A stretch of 64,000 nucleotides of DNA from Prorocentrum cordatum (Eukaryota), in the NCBI GenBank assembly GCA_963575745.1, contig CAUYUJ010000331.1, forward strand, positions 1-64,000, in the 5' to 3' direction. The translations under genes and the position numbers were made by a program. This document shows positions 24,276 to 58,926 of this stretch, one piece after another (within the stretch, counting starts at the first letter, position 1; every line of letters begins with the position of its first letter). The notes under the pieces were generated by a model, which was not told where the DNA came from, searched no databases, and saw only the letters and a program-made list of their open reading frames with translations.

Positions 24276-24310
24276 AACTGGAAGCTGGCGGGAAACCGTC
24301 GACCTCGGTT

Positions 24311-25771
24311 TTTTTTTACGGTTTGCGGTCCGCCACTAGAACCCGAATCCGAATCGGCGGAGCAGTGCAACTGAGCCCCCACCATCTTAGGTAGGTCGCA
24401 GCAGAGCGCACGCCACCTTAGCAGCAGCTCTCGTCAGGGCAGCGCAGGCAGCTAGTTCACAGCAGGTTACCGTGCTACCTGGAGGCAAGCTCATCGCCTC
24501 CTCGGCCACATCGCGCCAATGGAAGCTGCGCGAGCTGGTGCAGGAGGAAGAGGAGGAGGAGGAGGAGGAGATGGGAAAATCAACCTGCACGCTGGAACCC
24601 TACCTACAACGCCAATCTGAAGCCACCACCCACCTCCACATCCTTCATTACTGACACCCCCATCGAATGCACCACGGAGAGCAGTCTTACGAGTACTGAG
24701 GAACTGATCATATGCAAACCAGCGAGTAATAGTTTGGCCACCTCTGGCCTCCCACGACAATCTATCCGCACGTTCATTACCCTCACGAAAGAAATGCTTA
24801 TACAGATTCTGTCCCGATGCAGGCGAGGTCGGTCCGCATCCAGACAACATCGACACCGTATTTTGTAGTGTTCCCACCAGTCGTAAATACTGCTTGTTGC
24901 GAATCTGCCACCCACCACACATCCAGTTAACAACCGTCTTACTATCTCCCAAAATCTCCATCCCAAGACGCCCAATATTCTCACACCTCCACTCCGTTTC
25001 ATTCTCATACTTAGCGGCAATACGGTTGCTAATCCTCTCATTCATCTCTCTCTCCTCCTCCTCCTCCTCCGCCTTCACGTGCCTCACACCAGTGGCCTGG
25101 GTAAAACAAACAAGTCGAACAAGTGTTGCATGCCAATCACAGTCAGCAAATGTTTGCAATATTTCTCTCGGGACCCAGCGGAGCTGTCGAACGAGAGGTA
25201 CCACTCACAACCAAAGAGATCGCACAAACACCAGTCCCACACAGTATGTCCACGGGCAGGTGCGCCCATGCTCATGCGCGTGAGATGCTTCCTATCTTTT
25301 GCAGGCAACGCTAGAATACATGTGTCCCGATGTTCCGTCCACTTCCCCCTTTCCATGTAGCATGGCCAGCCTAGATATCATCCATTCACGTGACATATCC
25401 GACTCCTCAGGCATGGCAGGCTGATCGTCCGTTGTCCGCCGACGACAGCCACTCGACATCTGGGAGATCTGAGATACATGAGATGCATGAGAGGCCGCCG
25501 CCACCGCCATCGCCCGAGTTTTCCTCTGACGCCGATTTGGTACCGTCTCTCCCTCCTCCTCCACTGTGTGTGTTGTGTATCTCCTCATACGAATACTTGC
25601 AGCAACTGGGACATCCTTAGCCCAACCCCAACAACGAAATATCCACATCTGCACCGCACTTCGGAATCCAAGGTCAACGAAACTCTGTCGTCCAGCTTTG
25701 TATCGCCTACGTTGAAACTCAGACCAGCCTTCAGTTCTCCGCTTGCGTAGACCTGACATTAACGCCAGGCA
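24311..25771 (-). mobile_element. LINE family A, copy A1, 5'-truncated (3' 1.46 kb)
   Basis: Near-identical to the 3' end of A2. A-tail present. 12-bp TSD TCGACCTCGGTT at 24299-24310 and 25772-25783. Frameshifted. Confidence 0.95.
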
Positions 25772-26996
25772 TCGACCTCGGTTACCGCCGGGAACTCGTA
25801 GAGCTTCCTTGCGTTATACATGAATGAGATGCGGGCGCGGCAATCTCGCCTTCCGCGCGCGCGAGGGCGCAGTTTCATGAGGAGGACGCGAAGGAGAAGA
25901 AGAAGTGAGAAGGAGAAGGAGACGGAAGAGGATAACGAGGAGGGGCATGTGGAGGAGAAGGAGGAGGAGAAAAAAAACAAAAACAACAAAAAAATGAGGA
26001 GGAGCAGCCTATGAATTTAGTACAGGATAAACATGTGTGTATATATATATATATATACATTCTTACAAAATATTGCAGAGTGCTCAATTGTAGCTCTGGT
26101 GGCAGACCAATCTCAGACGTCTCGATACTAGAGCGGTGTCCTTTCCAGCTCCCTGGCTTGCCTATAAATTGAATGCAGAAATCCAACGCCGTCGAGTACA
26201 ATTGTTTTTTGGTTCCAGCTCTGGTAGCAGACCGAGTTCGGGCATCCAGATACTTGATACTAGCGTTCCTGATGATGTTATTCCGATTGCTGTGCCAAAA
26301 TCAGCGGAGTACGGATAGTTGTTCGGTTCCAACTCTGGTAGCAAACCGAGTTCGGGCATCCAGATACTTGAGACTAGCGCCCCTGATGGTTCCCTTTCGG
26401 TTGCTGCGCCGAACAGCTCTGTAGCTCATCTGCAGCTCGACTTACATCGAGAAGCTCATCGTCATCTCTCTTTTTTAAGCAGTGCACGAATAGTTTTGTC
26501 GGGCCCAGCTCGGGTAGCAGACCGAGTTCGGACATCTAGATACTTGAGACTAGCGCCCCCGATGATGTTCTTGCGATTGCTGCGCCGAACAGCTCTGCAG
26601 CTCATCTGCAGCTCGAGTCACATCAAGAAACTCATCATCATCTCTAGAATATAAGCAGAGTGCGAATAGTTTTTCGGGCCCAGCCCCGGGTAGCAGACCG
26701 AGTTCGGGCATCTAGATACTTGAGACTAGCGCTCCTGATGGTTTCCTTTCGATTGCTGTGCCGAAGAGCTCTGTAGCTCATCTGCAGCTCGGGTTACATC
26801 AAGAAAGCCACCATCATCTCTGAAAAATAATGGAGTACGAATAGTTCTTCGGACCCAGCTCGGGTAGCAGACCGAGTTCGGGCATCTAGACTTGAGATTA
26901 GCGCTCCTGATGGTGTTCTTCCGATTGCTGTGCCGAACAGCTCTGTAGCTCATCTGCAGCTCGTGTTACATCAAGACAGTCATCATCACCTCTGAG

Positions 26997-27036
<40 letters not shown>

Positions 27037-29170
27037 CTCTTACAAGATATTGCAGGGTGCCCAGTTTTAGCTCTGGTGGCGGACCACTCTCAGACTTCTC
27101 GATACTATGGGCGACGGTCTGATGATTCCCTGTTGAGCGGTGTCCTCTCCAGCTCCCTAGCTTGCCTATACATTGAATGCAGAAATCCAACGCCGTCGAG
27201 TACAATTGTTTCTGGTTCCAGCTCTGGTAGCAGACCGAGTTCGGGCATCTAGATACTTGATACTAGCGCTCCTGATGATGTTATTCCGATTGCTGTGCCA
27301 AAATCAGCGGAGTACGGATAGTTGTTCGGTTCCATCTCTGGTAGCAAACCGAGTTCGGGCATCTAGACACTTGAGACTAGCGCCCCTGATGGTTTCCTTT
27401 CGGTTGCTGCGCCGAACAGCTGTGCAGCTCATCTGCAGCTCGAGTTACATTGAGGAACTCATCGTCATCTCCAGAAAAAAGCAGAGCACGAATAGTTTTG
27501 TCGGACCCAGCTCGGGTAGCAAACCGATTTCGGGCATCTAGATACTTGAGACTAACGCTTCTGATGATCCCCTTCCGGTTGCTGTGCCGAACAGCTCTGT
27601 AGCTCATCTGCAGCTCGAGTTGAGTTCAGAAAACCGACAGCACCTGCCAAGTTGGCACTAAACAGCCGATCCAGCCTGAGTGCTTTTTGACAGTAATATG
27701 TACCCGATCGACCTGAGATTAAGATGGCGAGCGGAAATAAGATCGAAAATGTGTGGGAAATCTCAATCTCACTCTAAGGACCTTTCAAATTTCGAGATTC
27801 GCCGCTTTGCTCTTAGGGAAACTCCACGAGTCATTTCGAGAAAAATATTTTTTAATAGGCCAAAAAACCAAACATCCGTCGATATGTTTCGGGCCAACTG
27901 GGCGCCCGCGGCAAACCGTCAACCTTGGCTACCGCCGGGAACTCGTAGAGCTTCCTTGCGACATACACGAATGGGATGCGCGCGCGGCAATCTCGCTTTC
28001 CGCGCACGCGAGGGCGCGGTTTCACGAGGAGGGCGCGGAGGAGAAGAGGAGCGAGGCGAAGAAAGAGAAGGAGGAGGATAACGAGGAGGGGTAGGAGGAG
28101 GGGGAGGAGGAGGTGAAAGAAAGGAAGAGGGGAAGGAGGAAGAGGAGAGGCAGCCTATGAATTTAACACAGGAAACATACATATATCTCTTACCAAATGT
28201 TGCACAGTGCTCAATTGTAGCTCTGACTAATCTCAGACGTCTCGATACTGTAGGCGACGGTCTGATGATTCGAAAATTTGTCCAGTCGCAGCTGCGCTTG
28301 CAGGCCAAATTCAGACGTCTCGATTCAGCAGAATACGATTGGCTGTTGGGTTCCACCTCTGATAGCAGACCGAGTTCGGGCAGGTTGTCTCCCGATTGCT
28401 GTGCAAAACAGCTCTGTAGCTCGTCTGCACCTCGAGCTACATCTAGAAAGGCGTCATCATCTCAGAAAAAAACAGCAGGGTACAAATAGTTCTTTGGTTC
28501 CAACTCTGGTAGCAGACCGAGTTCGGGCATCTAGATACTTGAGACTTGCGCTCCTAATGTTTTCGCATTGCTGTGCCAAGCAGCTATGTAGCTCATCTGC
28601 AGCTCGAGGCACACCAAGATAGTCACCATCATCCCTGAAAAAATAAAGAGCACAAATAGTTTTTCGGACCCAGTTCGGGTAGCAGACCGTGTTCGGGCAT
28701 CTAGATACTTGAGACTAACGCTGCTGCTGGTTTTCTTTCGATCGCTGTGCCAACCAGCTCTAAAGCTCATCTGCAGCTCGAGTTAAAAAACACCGCAGAG
28801 TACGAACAGCGTTTCGGACCCAGCTCTGGTAGCAGACCGAATTCGGGCATCTAGATACTTGAAACTAGCACTTATGATCATTACCTTTCGATTGCTGTGC
28901 CAAACAGCTCTGTAGCTCATCTGCAGCTCGAATTAAGTTAAGAAAACCGAAGGCGTCTGCCGCTATGACACTGAACAGCCGATCCCGCCCACATGCTTTT
29001 TGACAGTAATATGTACCGATCGACCTGAGATTGAGATTCCGAGCGGGAATGAGATCGAATATGCTGCGAAAAAAAAAGAACTCTATCGACATATCGAAAT
29101 TCAAAAAAAAAAAAATGATTCTAAATAAATCGAAAAAATGACAAAACTTCCGTCGATATTTTTCGGGCCA
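25772..29170 (-). repeat. Two tandem composite H units (hairpin end, purine-rich spacer, ~175-bp satellite, conserved block); putative non-autonomous Helitron-like elements
   Basis: Same architecture at 25772-27897 and 27898-29170. An empty hairpin target sits at ~27898-27960. Confidence 0.75.
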
Positions 29171-29880: not shown

Positions 29881-29889
29881 CGCTTGAAC

Positions 29890-31177
29890 TCTAATATATG
29901 TTCCCTCCATCTTCGATCATATTCCCGCTCGCCATCTAAATCTCAGGTCGGTCGGTACATATTACTGTCAAAAAATACTCCGGCGGGATGGGCTGTTTAG
30001 TGTCATCTTGGTAGGTGCTGTCTGTTTTTTGAACTTAACTCGAGCTGTAGATGAGCTACAGAGCTGTTCGGCACAGCAACCGAAAGGAAATCATCAGAAG
30101 CGCTAGTCTCAAGTATCTAGATGCCCGAACTCGGTCTGCTACCAGAGCTGGGTCCGAAAAAATATTCGCACTCTGCTGATGTGGTAAGAGATGATGATGA
30201 GCTTCTTGATGTAACTCGAGCTGTAGATGAGCTACAGAGCTGTTTGGCATAGCAGTCAAAAGAAACCCATCAGAAGCGCTAGTCTCAAGCATCTAGATGC
30301 CCGAACTCGGTATGCGGCCAGAGTTGGAACCAAAACACTATTCGTACTCTGCTGCTTTTTTTCTGAGATGATGACACCTTTCTTGATGTAATTCGAGCTA
30401 CACATGAGCTACAGAACTGCTTAGCACCGCAGTCGGAAGAGCATCATCTGGAGCACTAGTCTCAAGTATCTAAATGCCCGAACTCGGTCTGCCACCAGAG
30501 ATGTAACAAAAAAACAAATCGTATTCTGCAATGTTAGGAGAACATGATCGTTCTGTACTTTATTTGAGCTGTAGGCTGGCTAAGAAGCGGAGACACTTCC
30601 CGAAGCAGAAGGTCATCACGTACATTCGCCAACCACATCGGAACGTCGAAATTCGGTCTGCAAGCGCAGCTACGACTGGACAATTTTCTCGCATTGCAAA
30701 TATTGCACCAGCAATGATGTGCGTTTCCCGATTGAGATTCGAGCTCTACGCGCCACGGAGCTGAGACGCACGCCAATCGACAGAGTCTAGACGCCTAAGA
30801 TCGGCTTGCCAGACCGTCACCTATAGCATCGAGACGTCTGAGGTCGGTCTGCCACCAGAGCTACAATTGAGCACTCTGCAATATTTGGTAAGAGATAATG
30901 TATACATACATATATATATCCTGTACTCAATTCATAGACTGCTCCTCCTCCTCCTCTTTCCCTCTTTCTTTCTTCTGGTCCTCCTTCTCCTCCTTCCACC
31001 CCTCCTCGTTATCCCCCTCCTTCTCCCCCTGCTCCTCGCTCCTTCTACTCGTCCACGTCTCCCTCCTGAAACCGCGCCCTCGCGCGCGCGGAATGCGACA
31101 TTGTCGCGCCCGCATCCCGCTCATGTATATCGCAAAGAAGCTCTACGAGTTCCCGGCGCCCCGGCGGCAACCAAGGT
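29890..31177 (+). repeat. Inverted composite H unit, ending at the LINE cut site
   Basis: Reverse-complement satellite and conserved block. Terminates at ...CCGGCGGCAACCAAGGT (31177). Confidence 0.85.
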
Positions 31178-31326
31178 AAATGTTTCGATCGTAAAACTTC
31201 ACCTAAAAAGCTGCCCCGCTCTCAGAATGAAGCTCATATTCTGTTAGAGGGAACGAAAATCTGCTTTCTCAGAATGAACGGCCAAGTATATTCTAAACTC
31301 GGAGCCGGCATAAATCGTCAACCAAG

Positions 31327-33105
31327 TTTTTGTTTCCGGTTTGCGGTCTCGCGGCCAGGCCCTCATGGGGCAGCGAGCGGGCTCGCAATAAGCCAGGAAA
31401 ACAGCGACACAGCCGAGCCAAGATGGCCGAGGCATGCGCATCAAGGGCCTGCCGAGCCAGTAGGCGTAGGCAGTCACCAGAAGGCAAACCAGAGATGAGA
31501 ATCGCAACGGCAAAACCGCCGCGGACTCGACTCCAGACATCCCGCCTGCGTGGTCCCACTAGCAGGACCCCCGTCACGCAGTCACGCAACGCCAAGCACT
31601 CCAAACGAGGCCGAAGAGATAAAATAAGACCAAGAATACCGGAAAAGCCAAGCCAGGGAAGAGAAATGCCAGGCCCCGTAGGCTTAGGCATAGCGAGTAC
31701 AAGACAAGGACGAGGACAAGGACCTTTGAGGCATACAAGTGACCTTCTTTGAGGCATCCAATAACAGATAAAATATAGCAAATACAACCGATCAAACTAT
31801 ATGCACGCATGTACAAACATACAGACTCAAACGAACAACCAAGAAGGAACAGAAGTAACCTCGCGACACCGCAACAAATGAAGCGAAGTGCACACGTGAG
31901 AGAACTCAAGATCAGAAACGCCTCCGTCGAATAACCCAAGGGTCGCGATGAGCGCTTCACATGGATAATCACAAACTTGCATGAATTGAGAAGAGCACAG
32001 TACGGCATGAGGCCACTCCGTCAATTCCAACGGGAGCCCCCAACACCAGCTCCACGTCTCACTGCATTTCGAATTGAATGTCTCCTAATCATCATCGAAA
32101 ACTTGAATAAGGATCAGAAGTAACCTCGCGTCACCGCTACAATTCAAGCGAAATGCACACGTAAGAGAACACGAGATCAGAAACGCCTCCGTCGAATAAC
32201 CGACGGATCGCGATGAGTGTTTCACCTGGATAATATCAAAGCTGCATGAATTGAGAAGAGCACAACACAGCATGAGGCTACTCCGCCGATTCCAACGGGG
32301 GGGCACAACACCAGCACTACGTCCCATTGCATTGAACTTCAAATTGAATGTCTCATTGTCACCATGAGGATGTACCTGGACAGTCACAAACTTGCCCTCT
32401 GCAGGATAAGAGTGCACGGTATGGGGAGCACAGACAAGCGCCCCTGGGGAACCAATGTTTGATGTCCAGGGTCTTCACATTCAAAGACGGATCCTTCGCA
32501 CCTTGAGAGCTCCCGCGCTCGAGCCAGCATCAACTTGTCCAGATCACGTATCGCATGGGAAGCTGAGGAAATTACAGGAAGGGAGGTTAACGCAAGAGGA
32601 ACAAGCTGCTGTCCGCACACGTGAGAGAACTCAAGATCGAAAACCCATTCGTCAAATAACCCACGGATCGCAATGAGTGCTTCACCTGGATAATTACAGA
32701 CTTGCATGAATTGAAAAGAATACAGCACAGCATCAGGCAGGCCACTCCGTCAATACCAACGGGGGGGCCCAACACCAGCTCCACGTCTCATTGCATGTTG
32801 AAACGAATGTCTCCTTACCAGCATCGAAAACTTGCATGAATTGATAAGAATAAGGATCGGAAGTAACCTCACGCCACCGCTACATTTGAAGCGAAATGCA
32901 CACGTCAGGACTCAAGATCAGAAACGCCTCCGTCGAATAACCCACGGATTGCGATGAATGTCTCACCTGGAAAATTTCAAAGCTACATAAATTGAGAAGA
33001 GTACAACACAGCATGAGGCCACTACGTCGAATCCAACGGGGGCCCACAACACCAGCTCTACGTATGATTGCATTTTGTATTGAACCATGAACGAAAACTT
33101 GCACG
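31327..33105 (-). mobile_element. Putative non-autonomous retroelement D with LINE-type tail; includes four ~265-bp degenerate repeats (31850-33105)
   Basis: Follows target left half GGAGCCGGCATAAATCGTCAACCAAG. Minus-strand tail GACCGCAAACCGGAAACAAAAA resembles those of A and B. The 5' limit is uncertain. Confidence 0.55.
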
Positions 33106-33215
33106 AACTGGGAGCCGGCGGTAAACCGTCAACCTTGGTTTGTTTTGCGGTTTGCGGTCCGCCACTAGAATCCGAATCCGAATCGGCGGAGCAGTGCAAC
33201 TGAGCCCCCACCATC

Positions 33216-36200
33216 TTAGGTAGGTCGCAGCAGAGCGCACGCCACCTTAGCAGCAGCTCTCGTCAGGGCAGCGCAGGCAGCTAGTTCACAGCAGGTTACC
33301 GTGCTACCTGGAGGCAAGCTCATCGCCTCCTCGGCCACATCGTGCCAATGGAAGCTGTGCGAGCTGGTGCAGGAGGAAGAGGAGGAGGAGGAGGAGGAGG
33401 AGATGGGAAAATCAACCTGCACGCTGGAACCCCTACCTACAACGCCAATCTGAAGCCACCACCCACCTCCACATCCTTCATTACTGACACCCCCATCGAA
33501 TGCACCACGGAGAGCAGTCTTACGAGTACTGAGGAACTGATCATATGCAAACCAGCGAGTAATAGTTTGGCCACCTCTGGCCTCCCACGACAATCTATCC
33601 GCACGTTCATTACCCTCACGAAAGAAATGCTTATACAGATTCTGTCCCGATGCAGGTGAGGTCAGTCCCCATCCAGACAGCATCGATACCGTATTTTGTA
33701 GTGTTCCCACCAGTCGTACATACTGCTTGTTGCGAATCTGCCACTCACCACACATCCAGTTAACAACCGTCTTACTATCTCCCAAGATCTCCATCCCAAG
33801 ACGCTCAATATTCTCACACCTCCACTCCGTTTCATTCTCATAATTAGCGGCAATACGTTTGCTAATCCTCTCATTCATCTCTCTCTCCTCCTCCTCCTCC
33901 GCCTTCACGTGCCTCACACCAGGTGGCCTGGGTAAAACAAACAAGTCGAACAAGTGTTGCATGCCAATCACAGTCAGCAAATGTTTGCAATATTTCTCTC
34001 GGGGCCCAGCGGAGCTGTCGAACGAGAGGTACCACTCACAACCAAAGAGATCGCACAAACACCAGTCCCACACAGTATGTCCACGGGCAGGTGCGCCCAT
34101 GCTCATGCGTGTGAGATGCTTCCTATCTTTTGCAGGCAACGCTAGAATACATGTGTCCCGATGTTCCGTCCACTTCCCCCTTCCATGTAGCATGGCCAGC
34201 CTAGATATCATCCATTCACGTGACATGTCCGACTCCTCAGGTATGGCAGGCTGATCATCCGTTGTCCGCCGACGACCGCCACTCGACATCTGGGAGATCT
34301 GAGATACATGAGATGCATGAGAGGCCGCCGCCACCGCCATCGCCCGAGTTTTCCTCTGACGCCGATTTGGTACCGTCTCTCCCTCCTCCTCCACTGTGTG
34401 TGTTGTGTATCTCCTCATACGAATACTTGCAGCAACTGAGACATCCTTGGCCCAATCCCAACAACGAAATATCCATATCTGCACCGCACTTCGGAATCCA
34501 AGCTCAACAAAACTCTGCCGTCCAACTTTGTATCGCCTACGTTGAAACTCAGACCAGCCTTCAGTTCTCCGCTTGCGTAGACCTGACATTAACGCCAGGC
34601 ATCTACCTTCAAAAGAGTGAACAGCAGCAATGGTGGAATAGTCGGGCGTTCTGCCCTCACAGTTGAATAATAATGCAGCAATCACTTTAGCTTGATAACG
34701 AGTAAATCTCTCAGCCAAATCAATCCCAGAGCAGCGATAATAAGCGATTTCCCCAAAGAACATCTTCTGGGCTTTCTGGAGCATGGCCTCTGAGTCCGAG
34801 TGGTCCTTCCAGGTCTCCTCCAGAGTGGCTCCCAGGATCTCAAACGACTGAACACGCGGCAGGACCACTTCTCGGGCCCCAAGAGCAGCGTCACTAGACG
34901 GCACCAGCACACGGATATCCTGCTCGGGGGACGGCGGGATGCCAGGCGGCGCACCAAAGTAAATATACATCAAGGATTTCGGCTTCCAGGTCATTCCTGC
35001 ATTCATCAGCGGGATACTCATGTCACGCACCATCAACTCGAGGTCAGTGCGGGTCTTCGCATACAACAGAAGATTATCTGCCCAGAAACTGTGGGTCATA
35101 CGCTCACCGTTGAACATGCGCTCATCATTTTCCAATTTGATACCGTACTGCGTATCCTGCCTCCACCTGTCGATCACATCTCTCCAGAGTACAATAGAAA
35201 CTGCTAGAAAAATCATCGGCCCCTCCACTCCTCCCGTTCGAATAGATTTGTCCCAATAGACCGCTGAAGATGCCTCGATGCCCTCGAAGCTGGCCACGCA
35301 CTGATTATCCATCATGGGTTCAATCAACGCCACAATGAGATCAGCTGGTATGTCAAGAGCACGAAGACAGCGCATGGCGAGGCACGGAGTGACATTATCG
35401 AATGCTTGTAAAATATCAAGGTTGGCAAGCCACAAACTGTCTCCTTTGCCCCAGACAGCGGAGTGCTGGCTGAGCCTTTTGGCAACGCTGGTGATTTCCG
35501 ATGTTTTACGTCCCGATCTGAATCCGTACAGGCATACATAGTGTCGGTGCTCCTCAATCCTCTTCTCAATCATCATCACAATACATGTCATGTACCATTT
35601 CATAAGACACGACTGTAGACATAGTACACGTGTATCTGTCAAATGTTGTATGTCAATTTCTTTAGGCATGAGTGTGGCAGCTAGTTGACGCCAACTGTCG
35701 GGGCAACATAACCTGCGGGAATACACACCTTGGAAGCTCACCAGCACACGTCGAACAGATGCCCACGAGAGCTGTTTCAACATCGTGACAGTCACGTTGT
35801 CGGGACCTGGGGCCTTTCCCGTGGACAGCTTCGCCCTCGCCCGCAGCAGGAGCGACATCGAGAACACCTCTGAGGATCCGCTTCCCGAACATAGACCACG
35901 CAGCGACTGTAGCTCACGAAGGGTCACCTCCCTGGCCTCGGGGTCCTCCACCTTAGACTTCATGTGCCCCAATATCTCGTCCCCCCACTCCTCGCGGTTC
36001 TGGGACTCCATCCCGTTGGCAAGGATCAACGTCTCCGTCTTGGCCCTCCTCCTCCTCCTCGTGTTCATTTCCGTCCTCCACCTCTGTACTCTTGCCTCCA
36101 GCCTCCTTCTTTCTCTCCTCACTATCTTTGAGCACCGTTTGGCCTCCTCTCTATCCCCGCGACGAAGTGCTTCGCGTTTACTTTCCTGGGCGGCCCAGTG

Positions 36201-42225: not shown

Positions 42226-42260
42226 GGCACTGGCGCCGGCGGTGAACCGTCAACCTGGTC

Positions 42261-44649: not shown

Positions 44650-44656
44650 ACCTGGT

Positions 44657-45858: not shown

Positions 45859-46248
45859 CCTGGTCACCGCCGGGAACCTCGTAGAGCTCCTTGCACGCGT
45901 AAGAGTGCTCAGAATCGAAGCAGAGAGCTTCTCGGAGCATTTCTAGAAAAACGTTAAATTTGCATTTTTCGGTGTCAACCTGATGTCGGTTGCTCCAAAT
46001 GTTTCGATAGTAAAACTCTCTCTGGGGAGCTGATTCTCTCCCAGAATGAAGTTTAAACACTAACGCTGGACGCAAAAAATCTGATATCTTAAAATCAATG
46101 GTCAAACTGGGAGCCGGCGGTAAACCGTCAACCTTGGTTTTTTGCGGTTTACGGTCAGAGCTGGTAGCGCTGGGGTCAGCGCCACTCGCGCCCTGCCACA
46201 ACTGGCGCATTGCAGTTTCGCAATCCCAGGAGCTTCGAGAGAGGGGCA

Positions 46249-49200: not shown

Positions 49201-50437
49201 AGTGCCGTCGTACTTTATTCCAGATACGTCGACTCTGCCGAAACTCCTCCTTCGTGATCTCCCCCCTCTTCCATTGCTTGTGTTTTTGATAATGTTGATT
49301 CCTCACCTCCACCTCCTCCTTGGTCATCGATGGGGGCCTCAAGGGGTCATGTTGGAGCCCCTCAGGAAACGATGATGCTGTTCTCCTGATAGCTGTTGCC
49401 TGGACCTCAACATCGATCTCGTCCTCAGTGGAAATCACGTCCTCCCCCTCTCCTACTGCAAACGGATGAGATGTGGGAGCAAGGGCATGATCGAGACGCC
49501 TCGCCACAACTTTCTCCATCCCTGGCGGCACTCTCCACTTGGCAAAGGAAGGAATAGCTGGCACCGCCTTTCGAGATCTGATTTTGCTCCATTGGGTCAC
49601 GTTCATTTCCAACAACTAATGATCACTCAAGAGCGTGACGGGCGTGTCCGATGGCATGTCACATGGGAGAATCCAGTGCTTGGCGACAGTGAGATGCGGC
49701 CAACTGCGTGGGATGGCTATATGGTCGTACACATGCTCATATCCATACTGGGAACGCCACGTACATGCACTCACCTCCCCCCGAGATCCCCTTCGATCCC
49801 CAAACGTGTTGGTGAGCTGGAGTCCCAGAGCGCCCAGAGTGGTACATAGGGCGTCCGCCATACAGGTTCTGATAGCATGCTTCTGTTTTTCATGCCCCCC
49901 CCGTCGTGGAGCCTCGGAGCCCGAGGTAGCTTCCCCAGACACCTGGAAACCGTCCCTGACCGAGTTACGAAAGACTTCAACATTCGCATCCATGGAGATA
50001 ATCACATGCTTGATCCCGAACTCATTCTTGAGGTCCTGGACAGATAACGCCATACTAAGTAGCACTTGTTGATACAATGCTACTGTTTCCCGCTGTTTTC
50101 CCAGTTTCCAGAAGAATCGAGAGTATCTTTGTGTGGTAGGTAGAGGGATGCAAAGAGGAAGCCCTGGAAGACACAGATAACGAAACGCTCCTCCAGGCTG
50201 ATGTTTGCGAAAGAGTGGTAATAGCTTTTTTCCCACGGCAACCCCTGCCTTTCCCGTACTGCAAGGGAAGATATGATACGGCGTACCAGTATCAACCACC
50301 TCTTCCTGCATGAATTGACATTCTTGGAGTCCAATGACTTCCAATCCCATGTCAGTGACACGTTTGAAAACTGTGGCAGCCTGACGCGTCCCAAGCCGCC
50401 TTACATTCCAGCCTGCCACACGGCAGCCTGGGCACCC
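46249..50437 (-). pseudogene. Family B ORF2 (APE + RT + permuted RNase H), several stops and frameshifts
   Basis: VAGWNV, GLQE, MDAN, YDHI; RAVGADG, YGF, DVARAFD, LCADN; GDS, REGNTRAD, FDGG; and in a shifted frame SAELCAA. Confidence 0.9.
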
Positions 50438-51745
50438 CTACTCCGACCTGTTACTCTTAGCCTGGAGGTCCCGCGCGTCAATCGAGCTGTCGACTTTCGC
50501 AACCCCCGAGGCTGTGAGTTTCCATCCATCTCCTCGCGTCCAGACCCCAAAGCATACTTCATGTGCTCTCTGCATCTGCGGACGTGCGTACGCCCAACTC
50601 AAAGTACTTCCACCGTGTTCAACTCTGCACTGGGCCGTCGATACCTGTTTCATACTGTAAAGACCGCCGTAAGTTGCTTACCTGCTCGAACTTGGGACTC
50701 TTTCCATGGGGGATTCTCAACTTCCAGAGCCAAACGTTGATCGATCCTGACCCCCAAGGAGTCCTCACTTCGTAATCTCACATCTTTATTTTGAATAGCC
50801 TCCCACCACTCTCTCCGTACCTCCCACACCGTATTTTTGGATACTCTTGGCTTGAAAAAGACCTGAATCTGATAGACTCCATCCCGTCGGTGGTTGGCTC
50901 CAGAGGTCGCGATGCGATCGAAGATCTTAACCTCCTCACTCTCACGATGTCCAGAAATATCATTGATGAGTACTTTCACCGTCTGCTCTGTATTATCAGG
51001 AGGCAAGTTACGATCAGTACGTCCAACCACCTGTCTCGGATCACCTGTGGCCCATCCCTTAAGAACAATCCATCCTGGTGTATGCTCTGGGCGAACAATA
51101 TTCCAATCCGTGTTGTCAATACCCCTTCGACTCCCAGCATCAGATGGCGGTCCAGAAGTGCCCGCCCTCGTACTGGCCCCCATGGAGAGGACGTGCTGGG
51201 TCCAAATTCGGATTATGAAGCTTTGTGATGGCCTGCTCCTGCTCTAACTGTTTCCACTTCACGTCCTCCACATCCCTGGCGACGTTATTCAACGAGTCCC
51301 TGACAGGTGCCACCTCCTCCCGAACTAAAGCACGTCTTTCTTCTTTGAAACTCTCGAGTTTGGATTCCATCGTTCTGGTTTGATTGGAAAACATCGTAGC
51401 CAGAAAATCTTTGAGATCCGCATCCTGAGGACCCTGTGCTGGAGGTGGTGGCGGTGGGGCTGCCTTCCTGGAGGGCAGAGTCGAGCGTCCAATACCTGGG
51501 TCGTATGCTGCTGATGACTTGGCCTGCACTGGGGGTCCTGGTTTAACCGCAGTCGATGAGGCATCACTGGGGGCCGTGGGTACCTGTTCTGTCGGGCCTC
51601 CAGGGGCTGGGGCTGGACGGAAGCCTCCAGGGCCCCCTTTCCAAGCCTCTCCCTCACGAGAACCTGTCGCACCTCCTCCTCCAGCTCCTCTAGCTTCCTC
51701 TCCACGCAATCCTACATCATCCACCTACATACCTGACCCTGCTGC
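50438..51745 (-). pseudogene. Family B ORF1, disrupted
   Basis: Coiled-coil segment. WIVLKGW and VENPPWK match FVELKGW and VEAPPWK of family A. Confidence 0.8.
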
Positions 51746-52300
51746 CATTCTGCTAAGATGAAGGGCCCGTAGAAAGTCGTCTTCCTCAGGTGCCTCTTCA
51801 AGGGGTATATCACGATCGATATCATCGAGATCAATATGTACACACTCCTGTCTGTGAACTAATATGTTGCCCTGATGATATACAGCGTTCTGGGAAGAGT
51901 TCCACACTGAGTCCCCACTGTTGTCGAAATCGTCAGAGAAAGCCGTGGCGTCAACAATTTGCACCCAACTGCGTCAGGGGAAAAACTGGGCAAGGTGGAC
52001 CAGCACACACGTAACTGCACGAGCAATAACTGTAACAGCAAGCGACAGTGCGCACACCAATCCTGCACCAACAAGAGACAAGGAAGACACAGAAGAGATA
52101 AGCTGCAAGCAACAAACCAAGTGCACCTGAAAGAAATAGACCTGTCAATGTCCAGCTGCCAGAGGTCCAGCTGCCAGACTGCAGGCTCCCCTGCCGCAGC
52201 GATCGCACGGCCCCCCGCGCGCGCGGCCGACCCCCTGCCCTTCCGCACAATGCGGCTCGAGCCGCACGAGGAGGCCCCACGAGCCCCAGCGGCAACCTTG

Positions 52301-55300
52301 TTTTTTTTTGCGGTTTGCGGTCCGCCACTAGAATCCGAATCCGAACCGGCGGAACAGTGCAACTGAGCCCCCACCTTCTTAGGTAGGTCGCAGCAGGGCG
52401 CACGCCACCTTAGCAGCAGCTCTCGTCAGGGCAGCGCAGACAGCTAGTTCACAGCAGGTTACCGTGCTACCTGGAGGCAAGCTCATCGCCTCCTCGGCCA
52501 CACCGTGCCAATGGAAGCTCTGCGAGCTGATGCAGGAGGAAGAGGAGGAGGAGGAGGAGGAGGAGGAGATGGGAAAATCAACCTGCACGCTGGAACCCCT
52601 ACCTACTACGCCAATATGAAGCCACCACCCGCCTCCACATCCTTCATTACTGACACCCCCGTCGAATGCACCACGGAGAGCAGTCTTACGAGTACTGAGG
52701 AACTGATCATATGCAAACCAGCGAGTAATAGTTTGGCCACCTCTGGCCTCCCACGACAATCTACCCGCACGTTCATTACCCTCACGAAAGAAATGTTTAT
52801 ACAGATTCTGTCCCGATGCAGGTGAGGTCAGTCCCCATCCAGACAGCATCGATAGAGTATGTTGTAGTGTTCCCACCAGTCGTACATACTGCTTGTTACG
52901 TATCTGTCACTCACCACACATCCAGTTAACGACCGTCTTACTATCTCCCAAGATTTCCCTCCCAAGACGTTCAATATTCTCACACCTCCACTCCGTTTCA
53001 TTCTCATAATTAGCGGCAATACGTTTGCTTATCCTCTCATTCATCTCTCTCTCCACCTCCTCCTCCGCCTTCACGCACCTCACACCAGGTGCCCTGGGTA
53101 AAACAAATGACTCGAACAAGCGTTGCATGCCAATCACAGTCCGCAGATGTTTGCAATGCTGCTCGCGGGACCCAGCGGAGCTGTCGAACGAGAGGTACCG
53201 CTCACAACCAAAGAAATCGCACAAACACCAATCCCATACAGTATGTCCACGGGCGGGTGCACCCACGCCCATGCGCGTGAGATGCTTCCTATCTTTTGCA
53301 GGCAACGCCAGACTACATGTGTCCCGATGTTCCGTCCACCTCCCCCTTCCACGTAGCATGGCCAGCCTAGATATCATCCATTCACGTGAGATGTTCGACT
53401 CCTCAGGCATGGCAGGCTGATCATCCGTTGTCCGCCGACGACCCCCACTCGACCTCTGGGAGATCTCGGATACTTGAGGAGCCGCCGCCGCCGCCATCGC
53501 CCGAGTTTTTCTATGACGCCGATTTGGTACCGTCTCCACCTCCTCCCCCACTGTGTGCGTTGTGTACCTCCTCATACGAATACTTGCAGCAGCTGAGACA
53601 TCATTGGCCCAATCCCAACAACGAAATATCCATATCTGCACCGCACTTCGAAATCCAAGCTCAACAAACCTCTGCCGTCCAACTTTGCATCGCCTACGTT
53701 GAAACTCAGACCATCCTTCAGTTCTCCGCTTGCGTAGACCTGACATCAACGCCAGGCATCTCCCCTCAAAGGAGTGAACAGCAGCAATGGTGGAATAGTC
53801 GGGCGCTCGGCCCTCACAGTTGCATAATAATGCAGCCATCACTTTAGCTTGATAACGAGTAAATCTCTCAGCCAAATCAATACCAGAACAGCGATAATAG
53901 GCGACTTCCCCAAATAATACCTTCTGGGCTTTCTGGAGCATGGCCTCTGAATCCGAGTGGTCCTTCCAGGTCTCCTCCAGAGTGGCTCCCAGGATCTCAA
54001 ACGACTGAACACGCGGCAGGACCACCTCTCGGGCCCCGAGAGCAGGATCACAAGACGGCACCAGCACACGGATATCCTGCTCGGGGGACGGCGGGATGCC
54101 AGGCGGCGCACCAAAGTAAATATACATCAAGGATTTCGGTTTCCAGGTCATTCCTGCATTCATCAGCGGGATACGCATGTCACGCACCATCAGCTCGAGG
54201 TCAGAGCGAGCCTTCGCATACAATAAGAGATTATATGCCCAGAAACTGTGGGTCATACGCTCACCGTTGAACATACGCTCATCATTTTCCAACTTGATAC
54301 CGTACTGCGTATCCTGCCTCCACCTGTCAATCACATCTCTCCAGAGTACAATAGGTATTGCTAGAAAAATGATCGGGCCCTCCACTCCTCCCGTTCGAAT
54401 GGATGTGTCCCAATAGACAGCTGAAGATGCCTCGATGCCCTCGAAGCTGGCCACACACGGATTATCAATCACGGGTTCAATCAACGCCACAATGAGATCG
54501 GCTGGTATATCAAGAGCACGAAGACAGCGCATGGCGAGGCACGGGGTGACAGTATCGGATGCTTGTAAAATATCAAGATTGGCAAGCCACAAACTGTCTC
54601 CTTTGCCCCAGACAGCGGAGTGCTGGCTGAGCCTTTTGGCAACGCTGGTGATTTCCGACGTTTTTCGTCCCGATCTGAATCCGCACAGGCATATATAGTG
54701 TCGGTGCTCCTCAGACCTCTGCTCAATCATCATCACAATACATGTCATGTACCATGTCATAAGACACGACTGTAGACATAGTACACGTGTATCTGTCAAG
54801 TGTTGTATGTTCATTTCCTTAGGCATGAGCGTGGCAGCTAGTTGACACCAACTGTCGGGGCAACATAACCTGCGGGAATACACACCTTGGAAGCTCACCA
54901 GAACACGTCGGAGAGATGCCCACGAGAGCTGTTTCAACATCATGACAGTGACTTTGCCGGGGCCTGGGGCCTTTCCCGTGGACAGCTTCGCCCTCGCCCG
55001 CAGCAGGAGCGACATCGAGAACACCTCCGAGGACCCGCTTCCCGAACATAGACCACGCAGCGACTGTAGCTCACGAAGGGTCACCTCCCTGGCCTCGGGG
55101 TCCTCGACCTTAGACTTCATGTGCCCCAATATCTCGTTCCCCCACTCCTCGCGGTTCTGAGACTCCATCCCGTTGGCAAGGATCAGCGTCTCCGTCTTGG
55201 CCCTCCTCCTCCTCCTCGTGTTCATCTCCGTCTTCCACCTCTGCACTTTTGCCTCCAGCCTCCTCCTTTCTCTCCTCACTATCTTTGAGCACCGTTTGGC

Positions 55301-57951
55301 CTCCTCTCTATCCCCACGACGAAGTGTTTCGCGTTACTTTCCTGGGCGGCCAAGTGGATCTCGGATTTCTTTGGTACATTATTTCTGGGATTGGTATCCT
55401 TCTGGGGGGTCTCCTCGGCGGCCTTTATGAGGTCAGGTCCTATCATGTCCAACATCTCCTGTCGATCCTCAGGGTCAGCATTTTCCTGGCGCAATGCACG
55501 GTAACGACTGCCCCGATCGTCCATGTTCTTCGCAAACTCGAACTGCGACACCGGTTGCAAGTAGATGAATTTTCGAGCAGGATGGGTCCGTCTCTTCGCA
55601 GACGGTGCACAAGACAAGCGAACAACTAGGCAAGCGTGGTCAGACAGCGCACGCTCGCATCTGCTGCATGGGTGCTCCGTCCAGGCGCGGCCCACTTCCG
55701 CAGGCAGCATCCAGCCTACAGTGAGCTCCTGCCTGTGTAAACGACGGCTGACACCAACATAGTCGAGTACCTTCTCCACCCCCGTATTTGATTTGAAAGT
55801 AACCCTCCTCTGCCCAAATGTGTTCTCCATCCTTATGCCCCAGAGCCCGCAGAAGTCCAGTGGGGCCCTCCTCATAGATTGCAGCCTAGACGCCCGTCGG
55901 ATTTCGAAGCCCGAGACAACCCTATGAGGTCTTGTTTTACGTGCACAACGTTTCGTTTGAGTCATATACGGGTTGCCGTCATCCGATCATTCCTCCATCC
56001 CAGTATCTCTCTCCGTAGTATCCCCAGCGATCCCAGACGCCTCCAAAAGCCCTGATCCAGTAACTCTAAAGCCGTTGACCTCCGAATCTGGCTCGAGTTC
56101 GACGTTAGCATCTGTCAGGAAGACCAGGTCCTGCGGCTGCTTCGGGAACTTAGACCTATGTGTGCGAATCACTTTGGATATATCAAACAACGTCTGTTCA
56201 TACACATCATGTTCATGCTGTTCTTCCGTAAGGGTACGAATACTCTCACGCGGCATATATGCAACAATAACCGTAACACTAGAATAACTACAAATCACAA
56301 AACCTTTGCCACGATATGTGGCCCTGAGCGAGTCTCTCCAAGACTTAGACATGATCACCGCAGCCTTCCGACAAGTACTCCGAAAAATTGTGTAACCTCG
56401 CATGTTGAGATCACGAGCTGAAAGGAACTGGCACTCGCACAACCCCGCGAGGCCCACATCTAAGCGACGTAGTGAATTAAGTATGTCATGGCCGTTCTCT
56501 GCACCTGCCCGACGCACATTCCATGACGCAATGGTGTCGTGGCACCTCTAGCTCGTACTGGAAATCCTCGCTCGCAACTCATCAATGTTGATCCCTGGCT
56601 CAAGCTGATTCATTGCACGAGTAATCCCCCGGCCATTCTGCAGAGAGAACTTGGCCACGATCTTCCCTGGAGGGGGTAGGTGATCACTGGAGCCCCACAT
56701 GAACGTAGTCGGTGGTCCCGTCTCAGCCCTAAGATTTGAATGATGCTTCTTGAAGCTCTTGAACTTTGCCTGAAAGATCCCAGCGGCATCCAGATGGGGC
56801 TTCTTCCAGGGGGGGGGGGCTCCACGTGAACCTTGAGGGCCCTGGGAGCATGCTGGAGTTTGTTGTCGGCAATCGCGGCGACGAGTCGACGACGGAGATC
56901 CCACAGATGGTCACTGGTAACCCCTTTCTGGAAATAGAGCCGAGCACGCGAATAACCCCATGCCTCTCGACCTGTGTTGAACTTCTTGGATTGGTTCAGG
57001 TCAAGAAGCTCCTTGACACCGCTCAACCACTCCCCAGCCAGGACCTCATTCAGGAGTGAATTCAACGCCTGCTGCGATAACATCTCCTCCTGACGCTTCT
57101 CTGCATCCCGCCATTCAGTCACCCATCCCTTGAGCTCGACGAATGTCGGAGTGAAATTCTGCATGGACTCACGAGCTTCCGCCGAGGACGCCGTCGTAGA
57201 GGCGCCTGCTCTGGGGCCCCACCTGCAGGAGCCTGCTGGAGCTGAATAATCTGAAGCCTCTGATCCTCCACCTTCTTACTAATAGCATCTATGTCCGTCA
57301 TCGCCTGCTGCACATTTTTCTCGACCGAATCAACACGAGCATTGAGTTGGGTGCCGAGATCCGCGATGCTCCGATGAGTAGACTGGAACCCCTCAGTCAT
57401 CTTACCTCCCAGAGATGCTACAAGCCCCGTGATCTTATCCATACCCCTAGTCATGGCCTCCTCGATACCCTCGACAGTCTGAACTTTGACACGTTTTCCC
57501 TCTGGGACCTCCTCCTCCTTGGCTCCTGGAACGGGCATATCAGTGGCATCCATGGCGAAAATCTCGGGGGCAACAGCAGCTGATGAGGCAGCCATCTTAC
57601 CGTCTGAGATGTTGCAAGGGGTATTCCACTTCTCACAGAACGATCGATCTTCTCGAGTACGTCTGAGATGTGCACGTAACTGATGAAAGTTATATGGGGC
57701 AACAGGATTATGGGGTAAAGTGGGAGACAGATCAGGTGGTCCAGATGGTATGTCAACCAGAGAACCTTTATCGTCACGACGAGATACACAAACCTGTCTG
57801 GCAAGATATTCCCACTCCCAGTGTCCGAAGTTCGATCCCCAGCGGTCCAGATCAATCGATAAACTCTGGCTCGTCCCGTCCAGCTCGACGCAGGCTGCCT
57901 GACCGCACAATGCGGCTCGAGCCGCACGAGAAAGCCCAGAGTTCCCGGCGG
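52301..57951 (-). mobile_element. LINE family A, copy A3, near full length, degenerate
   Basis: Tail abuts the 5' end of B. Frameshifts, stops, a WAYN RT motif and a 5' UTR deletion. Followed by CAACCTCGGTT (57952-57962). Confidence 0.95.
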
Positions 57952-57962
57952 CAACCTCGGTT

Positions 57963-58453
57963 TTTGAGTTTGAGTCAGGGCGCGGACAGCTGTGACAGCT
58001 GAGCCCTAAGACTCCCAAACGGAGCACAGGGCAGCTAGAGAAGGCATCTCTTATCATCACACTGCCGAGCCACTGAGGCATAGGCATCGGAATAGGATGC
58101 AGGAACAAGGAAAAGGATGCAGCACGACATGTGAAATTGCAAAGGTGTGGGAACAGGTTAGAGATGAAAGAGGCTACCCAAAACGTGCACCACGGCCATA
58201 CAGAGCCGTTGCGCTGGAAACATCACACAGAACACGACAGAAGCCGAGGCATCAAGCGAGAAAGCTTCCTCCGCCACCAACAGCCACGTCCCGTGTACAC
58301 ACAAACCTAAACACCATTCTGCAGCACATCCCTCCACAGAGTGACCTCCGTCGAAGAATCCACGGAGGCCGTCTAGTTCTGTTTTGCTCGCATGTTCAAT
58401 AAGGGAAGTATGGAATACAACGTAACAATTTCTGGTTCTGGCCAACCATGTCA
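57963..58453 (-). mobile_element. LINE family C, 5'-truncated 3' fragment
   Basis: Translates LTWLAR...GLRGFFDGGHSVEGCAAEWCL...VAEEAFSL, homologous to the A/B C-terminus. Tail GACTCAAACTCAAAAA. Target flank GGGAACTCGTAGAGCTT resumes at 58454. Confidence 0.85.
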
Positions 58454-58926
58454 GGGAACTCGTAGAGCTTGCCCCTGGCCTGGCCCGCCTGCCCCTGGCC
58501 TGGCCCGCCGCGCGGGGGCGCGGGGCGATCGGGCCACTCGGCATCTTCGGCGACTTCGGCGAGTCCGGGGCAAGCAGGCCGCCTGCCATGTGTTTGTATT
58601 TGTTTGTGTGCATTGTCGCGGCATTTTGCTGCATCGAGCTGGACGGGACGAGCCAGAGTTTATCGATTGATCTGGACCGCTGGGGATCGAACTTCGGACA
58701 CTGGGAGTGGGAATATCTTGCCAGACAGGTTGGTGTATCTCGTCGTGACGATAAAGATTCTCTAGTTGACATACCATCTGGACCACCTGATCTGTCTCCA
58801 ACTTTACCCCATAATCCTGTTGCCCCATATAACTGTCATCAGTTACGTGCACATCTCAAACGTACTCGAGAAGATCGATCGTTCTGTGAGAAGTGGAATA
58901 CCCCTTGCAACATCTCAGACGGTAAG

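What the first reader, a model, noticed from the sequence alone, without database searches (positions are those of the whole stretch)
24277..58470. Site-specific LINE clade: three families and passengers hit the same hairpin
The empty target consensus is CTGGGAG-CCGGCGGTAAACC-GTCAACCTT-GGTTACCGCCGG-GAACTCGTAG, a ~12-bp stem with a 9-nt loop (empty variants at ~27898, 39882, 40220, 40607). A1, A2, B, A3, C, D, E1 and E2 all sit at the loop/3'-stem in the same orientation, with 6-12 bp duplications wherever both ends are visible. Sequence-specific APE LINEs are known (Tx1, R1), but I do not recognise this target or clade.
Basis: partly seen in the sequence, partly recalled or inferred. Interest (0 to 1): 0.88.

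Follow-up and report, generated by a model that had tools for sequence, protein, structure and literature searches.

The report
LINEs targeting a conserved hairpin motif
Several unrelated-looking families of jumping genes (LINE retrotransposons) in a repeat-rich algal-type genome all insert at exactly the same nucleotide of one short conserved palindromic motif, and full-length copies rebuild that landing site at their own front end.

Summary
On the minus strand lie five protein-detectable LINE copies with a visible 3' end (A1, A2, A3, C, E; three families). Two non-coding inserts (B, D) lie there too. All seven have their 3' end at the same position of a plus-strand motif, ...CCGGCGGTAAACC-GTCAACCTT-GG^TTACCGCCGG. 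Duplications of 5-10 bp copy each site's own variants, so these are separate events. ORF2 has an N-terminal APE nuclease, a reverse transcriptase and a C-terminal RNase H-like domain. Its best solved match is human L1 ORF2p.

Outside the window, a metagenome scan gave 24 loci. Nineteen hold the empty canonical motif in at least four different flank families. One insertion, seen in two contigs, fills the same nick with a further element. Two loci carry diverged copies with the same loop and compensating stem changes. Contigs of four public runs show empty sites, other fillers, a head-to-tail junction and a truncated copy beside the right half.

Full-length elements begin with an inverted copy of the target's right half. 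This rebuilds the site, which was hit again (A3 into C, E into A3). Whether the hairpin shape itself is recognised is not shown. No whole-genome census was possible. This is a new variant of target-specific APE LINEs.

The parts
24277..24308 (+). Target T1, left half (variant ACTGGAAGCTGGCGGGAAACC-GTCGACCTC-GG); TSD copy 24299-24308
24309..25771 (-). A1: 5'-truncated family A LINE, 97% identical to A2 over 1508 bp; A9 tail at the left end
25772..25810 (+). Second TSD copy (TCGACCTCGG) and right half of T1 (GGTTACCGCCGGGAACTCGTAGAGCTTCC)
27897..27957 (+). Empty, degenerate target T2 (9 of 12 stem pairs)
31126..31190 (-). Inverted right half of a target; it breaks at ..GCAACCAAGG|, the nick position, at the end of inverted segment 29876-31190
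31296..31326 (+). Degenerate left half and loop (AACTCGGAGCCGGCATAAATCGTCAACCAAG); TSD copy 31319-31326
31327..31835 (-). B: short non-coding insert with an A-like 3' tail; second TSD copy CAACCAAG at 31836-31843; the right flank is not the 3' stem
33107..33138 (+). Target T4, canonical left half; TSD copy CAACCTTGG 33130-33138
33139..38939 (-). A2: full-length family A LINE. ORF2 33219-37391 (1391 aa, open) has APE, RT and RNase H-like domains. ORF1 is about 37395-38500 with one TGA. The 5' leader is about 38870-38939
38940..38990 (+). Second TSD copy and canonical right half of T4
39881..39940 (+). Empty variant target T5 (V type; loop one base shorter), at the start of a ~338-bp tandem unit
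40219..40278 (+). Empty variant target T6 (V type)
40606..40664 (+). Empty target T7 (10 of 12 stem pairs)
42229..42258 (+). Target T8, left half (V type, CCGGCGGTGAACC); TSD copy CCTGG 42254-42258
42259..45858 (-). D: 3.6-kb non-coding passenger with no poly(A). Its 5' end CTCAAGGTTG.. resembles part of the A 5' UTR
45859..45885 (+). Second TSD copy and right half of T8 (GGTCACCGCCGG; pairs 12 of 12 with its left arm through an A.T to G.C change)
46106..46137 (+). Target T9, canonical left half
46138..52300 (-). C: full-length, frameshifted LINE of a second family (ORF2 25% identical to A); its 5' leader ends ..CCAGCGGCAACCTTG
52301..57960 (-). A3: full-length, frameshifted family A copy inserted at the site rebuilt by C's 5' end
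57961..58453 (-). E: 5'-truncated 3' fragment of a third family, inserted at the site rebuilt by A3's 5' end; right boundary approximate
58454..58469 (+). Remnant of the target's right half (GGGAACTCGTAGAGCT); the 3' stem is deleted
58470..64000 (+). A4: family A copy in the opposite orientation, about 75 nt shorter at the 5' end than A2; runs off the window

Best explanation
The window, from a eukaryote that is probably a prasinophyte-type green alga, holds a nest of target-specific non-LTR retrotransposons. Their ORF2 has an N-terminal APE nuclease, a reverse transcriptase and a C-terminal RNase H-like domain. Inferred mechanism: the nuclease nicks the plus strand of a conserved motif of about 65 nt at ...GCCGGCGGTAAACCGTCAACCTTGG^TT. 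The freed 3' OH primes reverse transcription from a short A-rich tail (target-primed reverse transcription). The other strand is cut 5-10 nt away, on the 5' side of the loop, which gives the duplications. Full-length RNAs begin with the duplicated bases (CCAAGGTTG). These can pair with the cut second strand and so give a precise 5' junction. Next comes an inverted copy of about 30 nt of the target's right half. Each full-length insert therefore rebuilds a palindrome that holds the cleavage motif, and later insertions use it, which produces head-to-tail arrays. At least three protein families share the site, and non-coding passengers (B, D) use it too, presumably mobilised in trans. The target is a discrete, highly conserved palindromic module inside satellite-like repeats. 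Summed contig depth over it is far above that over the LINE. Shown: the domains, junctions, TSDs, orientation, re-use of rebuilt sites, and conservation of the motif elsewhere. Inferred: the nick positions, the order of steps, the trans-mobilisation, and which part of the motif is recognised.
For: Domains: RVT_1 in three copies. The profile matches L1 ORF2p at E 3e-39 over APE and RT, exonuclease III at 1e-9 and RNase HI at 2.5e-11. Catalytic residues are invariant in 12 of 12 aligned proteins. Junctions: 7 of 7 in-window events share the same position and orientation, and 5 of 5 protein-detectable LINE copies with a visible 3' end lie there. TSDs carry site-specific variants: TCGACCTCGG, CAACCTTGG, CAACCAAG and CCTGG. 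Flanks and truncation points differ. Elsewhere: of 24 metagenome loci, 19 are empty canonical sites followed by at least 4 flank families, and L016 and L021 (the same sequence) are filled at the same nick by another element. The core is 88-100% identical to the window while the flanks are 68-78% identical. In runs X1, X2, X9 and X6, contigs with the empty site number 22, 28, 4 and 5. Other fillers appear at the nick in X1 and X6. X2 has a head-to-tail A-A junction. X9 has a 5'-truncated A copy beside the right half. Leader: the A3, C and A2 leaders align to the right half at 26/30, 24/30 and 29/37. The A3 score is 41 against a maximum of 20 in 50 shuffles. A3 lies in C's rebuilt site and E lies in A3's.
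Against: No genome is held, so the share of all LINE copies that sit in the motif is unmeasured. The run data are contigs, which break at the variable T-run, and 171 loose-end rows were not shown. X1 may be the window's own sample. Only one insertion is seen among the 21 canonical metagenome sites, which were selected by the left half. A hairpin requirement is unsupported: site B has no 3' arm, the in-window empty sites fold no better than shuffles, and nothing was tested biochemically. A4's 5' junction and E's 5' junction do not fit the simple scheme. D has no poly(A) and no similarity to the LINEs beyond a short 5' stretch. No copy in the window is fully intact.
Confidence: 0.8

Rival explanations
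1. Self-targeting as in Zepp. The 'target' would be LINE-derived sequence, namely the 5' leader of older copies and their junctions, so the elements simply nest into their own kind, and the palindrome is a by-product of head-to-head and head-to-tail junctions.
For: The right half plus about 20 nt is homologous to the LINE 5' leaders. Rebuilt sites at LINE 5' ends are re-used in the window and in run X2. Zepp and ZeppL are described as nesting into existing copies (PMC8226300, passages).
Against: Nineteen metagenome loci carry the complete motif with no LINE sequence within 600 bp on either side. The motif has sharp edges on both sides and at least four unrelated right-flank families. Diverged copies in L004 and L024 keep the loop and compensate the stem, which suggests the motif is constrained in its own right. 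Summed depth over the left half is 11-76 times that of the neighbouring LINE bin, although the tool warns that depth is no copy number.
Confidence: 0.15
2. The two half-sites are the termini of one composite mobile element with variable cargo, and the 'empty sites' are internal-deletion derivatives.
For: Both halves always flank the inserts, and the block has sharp outer edges (ACTGG... and ...GCTTCC) with diverse flanks.
Against: Direct duplications of 5-10 bp flank each insert and carry the local variants of the loop. Inserts are 5'-truncated at different points yet keep A-rich 3' ends. Both features are hallmarks of target-primed insertion into an existing site.
Confidence: 0.03
3. One ancestral insertion was copied by segmental or tandem duplication of the satellite array.
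For: The region is built of tandem repeats: 176-bp, about 260-bp and about 338-bp units.
Against: There are three protein families, two non-coding inserts, different truncation points, different TSDs and different flanks. The same site is used in other samples by other elements.
Confidence: 0.02

Closest known systems
Tx1-clade target-specific LINEs (Tx1 in Tx1D; Tx1-Mar with SINEU in Mariner-N4_AMi)
   Same: These are APE-type LINEs that insert at fixed positions of another repeat family. Several LINE families and non-autonomous partners share the target, and some LINEs carry borrowed 5' heads (PMC4494074, passages read).
   Different: The host (an alga-like genome) and the target differ. An RNase H-like domain is present here. 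The 5' leader is an inverted copy of the target and rebuilds the site. Membership of the Tx1 clade was not tested, because no reference RT sequences were at hand.
Zepp / ZeppL L1-type LINEs of green algae
   Same: They occur in green-algal lineages, nest into existing copies, form tandem arrays of the same orientation and cluster in repeat-rich (centromeric) regions (PMC8226300, passages).
   Different: No defined nucleotide-level target or palindrome is described in the passages I read. The original Zepp paper is not held. The phylogenetic relation was not tested. Here the site also exists without any LINE.
R1Bm / TRAS / SART (R1-clade, APE-based sequence specificity)
   Same: The APE domain cuts both strands of one specific sequence in a multicopy target, with short TSDs (PMC1919474, abstract in the search listing).
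   Different: Those targets are 28S rDNA or telomeric repeats in insects. The profile search of solved structures listed L1 nucleases but no R1Bm or TRAS1 nuclease at E<=0.01.
R2 and other RLE LINEs (co-transcription, target homology, branched-DNA intermediate)
   Same: Element ends carry target sequence that helps precise joining. A 4-way branched DNA is the substrate for second-strand cleavage (PMC6895275, abstract in the listing). A palindromic target could extrude a similar shape.
   Different: R2 uses a restriction-like endonuclease C-terminal to RT. Here the nuclease is an N-terminal APE and the C-terminus is RNase H-like.
Shared 5' signature (Pr77) of trypanosomatid L1Tc/ingi and their non-autonomous partners
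   Same: A short 5' sequence is shared by divergent LINE families and passengers. This comparison is recalled and was not checked here.
   Different: Pr77 is not reported as a copy of the insertion target (also recalled).

Membership tests
Non-LTR (LINE) retrotransposon, APE type | N-terminal apurinic/apyrimidinic-like endonuclease with its catalytic residues | tested here: met
   Invariant QE, D146 (TDAN), D262 and SDH 302-304 in 12 of 12 proteins. The profile hits L1 ORF2p from position 2 and exonuclease III at E 1e-9. Pfam Exo_endo_phos is found in only 2 of 12 members and not in P0001 itself.
Non-LTR (LINE) retrotransposon, APE type | Reverse transcriptase domain | tested here: met
   RVT_1 at E 1.7e-11 (A2) and 1e-9 (A4). 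Family C scores 1.2e-5, below the curated cut-off. RVT_1 is found in 11 of 12 homologues.
Non-LTR (LINE) retrotransposon, APE type | Marks of target-primed insertion: A-rich 3' end, variable 5' truncation, short TSD | tested here: met
   The exception is D, which has no A-tail.
L1 / Tx1 clade | Placement in an RT phylogeny with reference clades | not testable with these tools
   No named reference LINE sequences are available. The best solved match is L1 ORF2p, and the Atlas and name searches were uninformative.
Zepp / ZeppL | RT/EN phylogenetic grouping with Zepp | not testable with these tools
   No Zepp sequence is held.
Zepp / ZeppL | Nested insertion into existing copies, giving same-orientation arrays | tested here: met
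   C, A3 and E form a head-to-tail array, and run X2 holds an A-A junction.
RLE-type site-specific LINEs (R2, NeSL, CRE, Utopia) | Restriction-like endonuclease downstream of RT and no APE | tested here: not met
   An APE is present at the N-terminus. The C-terminal domain models as RNase H-like.
Known structured RNA (Rfam) for the target motif | Match to a covariance model | tested here: inconclusive
   No hit at gathering score in the window. Nothing relevant at E<=10 or E<=5 on the motif. The mir-299 hits on L005 only reflect a long palindrome.
Hammerhead ribozyme (considered for the motif) | Core CUGANGA ... GAAA around three helices (consensus recalled) | tested here: not met
   The order of helices is alike, but the motif reads CUGGGAG and GAAC, differing at recalled invariant positions (read by eye). 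No Rfam hammerhead match was found.
Helitron 3' end (considered for the motif) | Hairpin about 10 nt before a terminal CTRR (recalled) | tested here: not met
   In the matching orientation the block ends ...CTCCCAGT. No Rep/helicase gene is in the window (searches cover only the ORFs I scanned).

The most novel reading that the evidence does not exclude
The 65-nt motif would be a functional structured element in its own right, with an invariant loop GTCAACCTT and a stem kept by compensating changes across lineages. It would work as a cruciform or hairpin in DNA, or as an unknown structured RNA. An old LINE lineage, marked by a circularly permuted RNase H domain, would have co-evolved with it. 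The LINEs would recognise it and carry an inverted half-copy, so that each insertion rebuilds the landing pad. That makes a self-renewing 'safe harbour' that builds satellite and LINE arrays, possibly centromere-like regions.
Probability: 0.3. Interest if true: 0.85.

Novelty: new variant of a known kind. Interest (0 to 1): 0.62.

Why it matters
Target-specific LINEs are natural examples of precise, RNA-templated insertion into harmless genomic sites. Here at least three families only 25% identical, plus passengers, keep one target. The element restores the target at its own 5' end, which offers a simple explanation for how same-orientation LINE arrays grow. Such arrays are seen at green-algal centromeres. 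The motif gives a defined substrate for asking whether an APE nuclease reads sequence or DNA shape. It also seems to be constrained independently of the LINEs, and its function is unknown.

Tried and rejected
Whole genome: none is held, so no census was possible. Earlier findings: three look-ups returned nothing. RNA evidence: no RNA holder is listed.

Word-index protein searches gave no hit with P0001 and no useful names with the profile. The Atlas confirmed only 'APE+RT'.

Rfam and tRNA scans found nothing.

The motif pattern in viral contigs (2 hits) and prokaryote genomes (15 hits) is at chance level. My own estimate is about 17 expected, and none of these hits has the arms. L019 equals a Cyanobium hit, so it is chance.

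D's ORFs have no Pfam family and no similarity to A or C, and they look non-coding. The filler of L016 has no protein similarity to A, C, D or E within 600 nt.

I considered that the motif heads a plus-strand SINE-like unit with a poly(A) tail. I rejected this because A105 and A73 are expansions of the A-run inside the 176-bp satellite unit. The hammerhead and Helitron-end ideas were also rejected (see Membership tests).

Folding of the four in-window empty sites gave z from -1.0 to +0.15, not better than shuffles.

Foldseek and VIA-align found no full-length match for the C-terminal domain, only half matches to RNase H. A single-sequence PDB search of that domain gave nothing.

The original Zepp paper is not held. 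Contig depth and uncovered parts were not used as copy numbers.
Full report
SETTING. The window is eukaryotic and almost wholly repetitive. It holds more than 6 kb of (ATC)n/(CCT)n microsatellite, other simple repeats, and satellites of 73, 176, about 260 and about 338 bp. No genome is held for it. It has no Rfam family at gathering score and no tRNA. The closest relatives of the LINE protein are short fragments, 73-96% identical. The two I looked up (P0004 and P0006) are labelled as transcripts of a Pyramimonas species in EukProt. I take the host to be a prasinophyte-type green alga; this is inference.

The 5' arm pattern occurs 10 times against 0.55 expected, and the 3' arm pattern 19 times against 2.42; no shuffle out of 100 reached either number.

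- Read on the plus strand, the canonical site is ACTGGGAG-CCGGCGGTAAACC-GTCAACCTT-GGTTACCGCCGG-GAACTCGTAGAGCTTCC.
- Empty but degenerate copies lie at 27897, 39881, 40219 and 40606.
- Seven inserts, all on the minus strand, have their 3' end directly after ...CCTTGG or its local variant. They are A1 (24309-25771), B (31327-31835), A2 (33139-38939), D (42259-45858), C (46138-52300), A3 (52301-57960) and E (57961-~58453).
- Where both ends lie in an original site, a direct duplication is present and carries that site's own variants. These are TCGACCTCGG (A1), CAACCAAG (B), CAACCTTGG (A2) and CCTGG (D).
- A profile search of all six-frame ORFs found LINE protein only in A1, A2, C, A3, E and A4. 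So 5 of 5 protein-detectable copies with a visible 3' end are at the site.
- A4 (58470 to the window end, plus strand) runs off the window.

WHAT THE ELEMENTS ARE. A2 has an open 1391-aa ORF2.

- Pfam finds RVT_1.
- An exhaustive search found 1433 relatives at E<=0.001; the best full-length one is 31% identical.
- In an alignment with 11 full-length relatives, the APE residues (QE, D of TDAN, D262, SDH), the RT motif (W)ADN and RNase H-type residues are invariant.
- The profile matches human L1 ORF2p across APE and RT (E 3e-39), R2 proteins across RT only, exonuclease III (1e-9) and RNase HI (2.5e-11).
- Family C is 25% identical to A over 1040 aa of ORF2. E matches only the C-terminal domain (27%, E 9e-4; E 3e-6).
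- B and D have no detectable coding similarity. B has an A-like 3' tail, and D's 5' end resembles part of A's 5' UTR.
- All families end in short CCGCAAA-like repeats followed by an A-run; D is the exception.

INDEPENDENT EVENTS. A1 and A2 are 97% identical but differ in truncation point, TSD and flanks. A2, A3 and A4 are 94-95% identical. Three protein families and two non-coding inserts cannot derive from one duplicated event.

OUTSIDE THE WINDOW. One metagenome scan with a 21-letter pattern of the left half gave 24 loci:

- Sixteen loci show the complete canonical hairpin, with 12 of 12 stem pairs.
- One (L020) is cut in its 5' arm, and two (L011, L023) are cut just after the start of the 3' arm. 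That makes 19 empty canonical sites.
- L016 and L021, which have the same sequence, are filled at the same nick by an unrelated element ending ...CAAACAAAAAA.
- L004 and L024 carry diverged hairpins.
- L019 is a chance bacterial hit, since the same sequence turned up in a Cyanobium genome.
- The canonical block has sharp edges. Upstream of ACTGG and downstream of GCTTCC the loci fall into several unrelated flank families.
- Against the window, the core is 88-100% identical while homologous flanks are 68-78% identical.

Contigs of four runs were laid on A2 with its flanks:

- Contigs with the empty site, whose loose ends continue ACCGCCGGG after 33140, number 22, 28, 4 and 5 in X1, X2, X9 and X6. 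Matching joints skip the element.
- Upstream of 33106/7 the sequence is diverse (agreement 0.47-0.56).
- Other fillers sit at the nick in X1 and X6.
- X2 holds a head-to-tail junction from an A 5' end to an A 3' end.
- X9 holds a 5'-truncated A copy that abuts CGGGAGACTCGTAGAGC, the target's right half.
- The bin holding the left half has 11-76 times the summed contig depth of the next LINE bin. The tool warns that this is not a copy number.
- X1 may be the window's own sample.

THE TARGET.

- Canonical copies fold well as DNA hairpins: z from -3.0 to -4.5, with 0-2 of 200 shuffles as good. The degenerate in-window empty sites do not.
- Variants keep pairing by double changes. The V type has A.T to G.C, and both arms of D's site carry it.
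- L004 has three copies; in the clearest (L004a) the arms are CGCGCGGTAAAC and GTTTACCGCGCG.
- L024 has three copies, including GCGGAGGACC paired with GGCCTCCGC, always around GTCAACCTT.
- A formal count on 13 sequences gave 76.9% of cells paired. Four pairs and 7 cells had changes on both sides (3 of 500 shuffles), and covariation was 0.111 against 0.067 (8 of 500). Three rows were partly out of register. This is moderate support for a constrained stem.
- The motif matches no Rfam family. In viral and prokaryote collections it occurs only at chance level.
- In the window it sits at unit boundaries of the satellite-like arrays.
- Its own function is unknown.

THE LEADER AND SITE REGENERATION. 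In element sense, the first bases of A2, A3 and C are the duplicated CCAAGGTTG. About 30 nt follow that align to the target's right half as read on the opposite strand (26/30, 24/30 and 29/37). The A3 score is 41 against at most 20 in 50 shuffles. A full-length insert therefore leaves ...GAGTTCCCGGCGGTAA^CCAAGGTTGCCGCCGGGAACTC... at its 5' junction. This is a new palindrome that holds the cleavage motif. A3's tail is joined to exactly this place in C, and E's tail to the same place in A3. Run X2 holds the equivalent A-A junction. D starts with CTCAAGGTTG although its own site has the shorter loop and a CCTGG duplication. The leading bases therefore travel with the RNA.

MECHANISM, AND HOW SURE.

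- Shown: APE, RT and RNase H-like ORF2; one insertion point and one orientation; staggered duplications; rebuilt sites that are re-used; a conserved motif that exists without LINEs.
- Inferred: the APE nicks CCTTGG^TT on the strand that then primes cDNA synthesis from the A-tail. The second cut falls 5-10 nt away, on the 5' side of the loop. The 9-nt identity between the RNA 5' end and the cut second strand guides a precise 5' join. B and D are mobilised in trans.
- Open: which part of the motif is read. All sites, including the rebuilt sites and site B, share ...GCGG(Y)AA...ACC(T/A)(T/A)GG on the primed strand. Site B lacks the 3' arm. Sequence recognition of the left half plus loop is therefore at least as likely as recognition of a hairpin.

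AGAINST.

- There is no genome-wide census.
- The run contigs break at the variable T-run, so the junction itself is poorly sampled, and many rows were not shown.
- The A4 and E 5' junctions are irregular.
- No copy in the window is fully intact. A2's ORF1 has a TGA where A4 has AGA, and A3, A4 and C are frameshifted.

COMPARISON AND NOVELTY. Target-specific APE LINEs are well known. The closest precedent is the Tx1 group, in which several LINE families and SINEs share fixed positions in a DNA transposon and some carry borrowed heads (PMC4494074, passages). Green-algal Zepp/ZeppL elements nest into their own copies (PMC8226300, passages). Four literature searches and the passages read showed no LINE with this target, none with a palindromic target, and none with a leader that restores its target. 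Repbase could not be consulted. I rate the finding a new variant of a known kind.

Noticed in passing
window 33219-33820 (minus strand; ORF2 residues ~1190-1391), and homologues P0002, P0005, P0008, P0172 and others: The RNase H-like domain has its catalytic motifs in permuted order: GDSK...NERAD comes first, then FDGG..GxGW..(A/C)EL. This order holds in 12 of 12 full-length homologues. An AlphaFold model (pLDDT 85, pTM 0.81) has the order b4-aB-aD-b5-aE-b1-b2-b3-aA. Sequential aligners match RNase H only by halves. One paper search found no report of such a permutation in LINEs.
   Followed up: partly
window 37392-37394 (A2), 56548-56550 (A3), 59971-59973 (A4) and ~50438-50440 (C): ORF1 and ORF2 lie in the same frame, separated by a single TAG in the context TAG-RGG-TGC-C. 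This is conserved between families A and C, and there is no ATG near the start of ORF2. That suggests stop read-through or re-initiation.
   Followed up: partly
window 23876-23980 and 40768-40840: A105 and A73 tracts are expansions of the short A-run inside the 176-bp satellite unit. They are not retroposon tails.
   Followed up: yes
window 29876-31190: This is an inverted copy of the satellite unit. Its end is an inverted right half of the target, broken exactly at the LINE nick position (..GCAACCAAGG|TAAATG). It may be a rearrangement started at the nick.
   Followed up: partly
window 1-8404 and 20886-23062: There are more than 6 kb of (ATC)n/(CCT)n with strong C-over-G skew, about 1.8 kb of (CAGCCT)n and a 73-bp repeat of 5.5 copies.
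   Followed up: no
L004 (three copies) and L024 (three copies): Diverged versions of the hairpin have other stems but the same loop. They are spaced 200-600 bp apart in contigs whose flanks are unrelated to the window, so the motif family is wider than the LINE-bearing satellite.
   Followed up: partly
L005 1-62; L001 and L012 upstream regions; window 29171-29344: An inverted left half lies directly upstream of an intact hairpin in L005. Repeated 70-bp units end in GGGAAGCTCTACGAGTC, an inverted right-flank fragment. These may be fossil junctions of earlier events.
   Followed up: no
3' ends of A1/A2/A3, B, C and E (window) and of the L016 filler: All tails consist of short CCGCAAA-, CTCAAA- or CCCAAA-like repeats before the A-run. 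They resemble AAACCGTCAA of the target's primed strand. The meaning is unknown.
   Followed up: no
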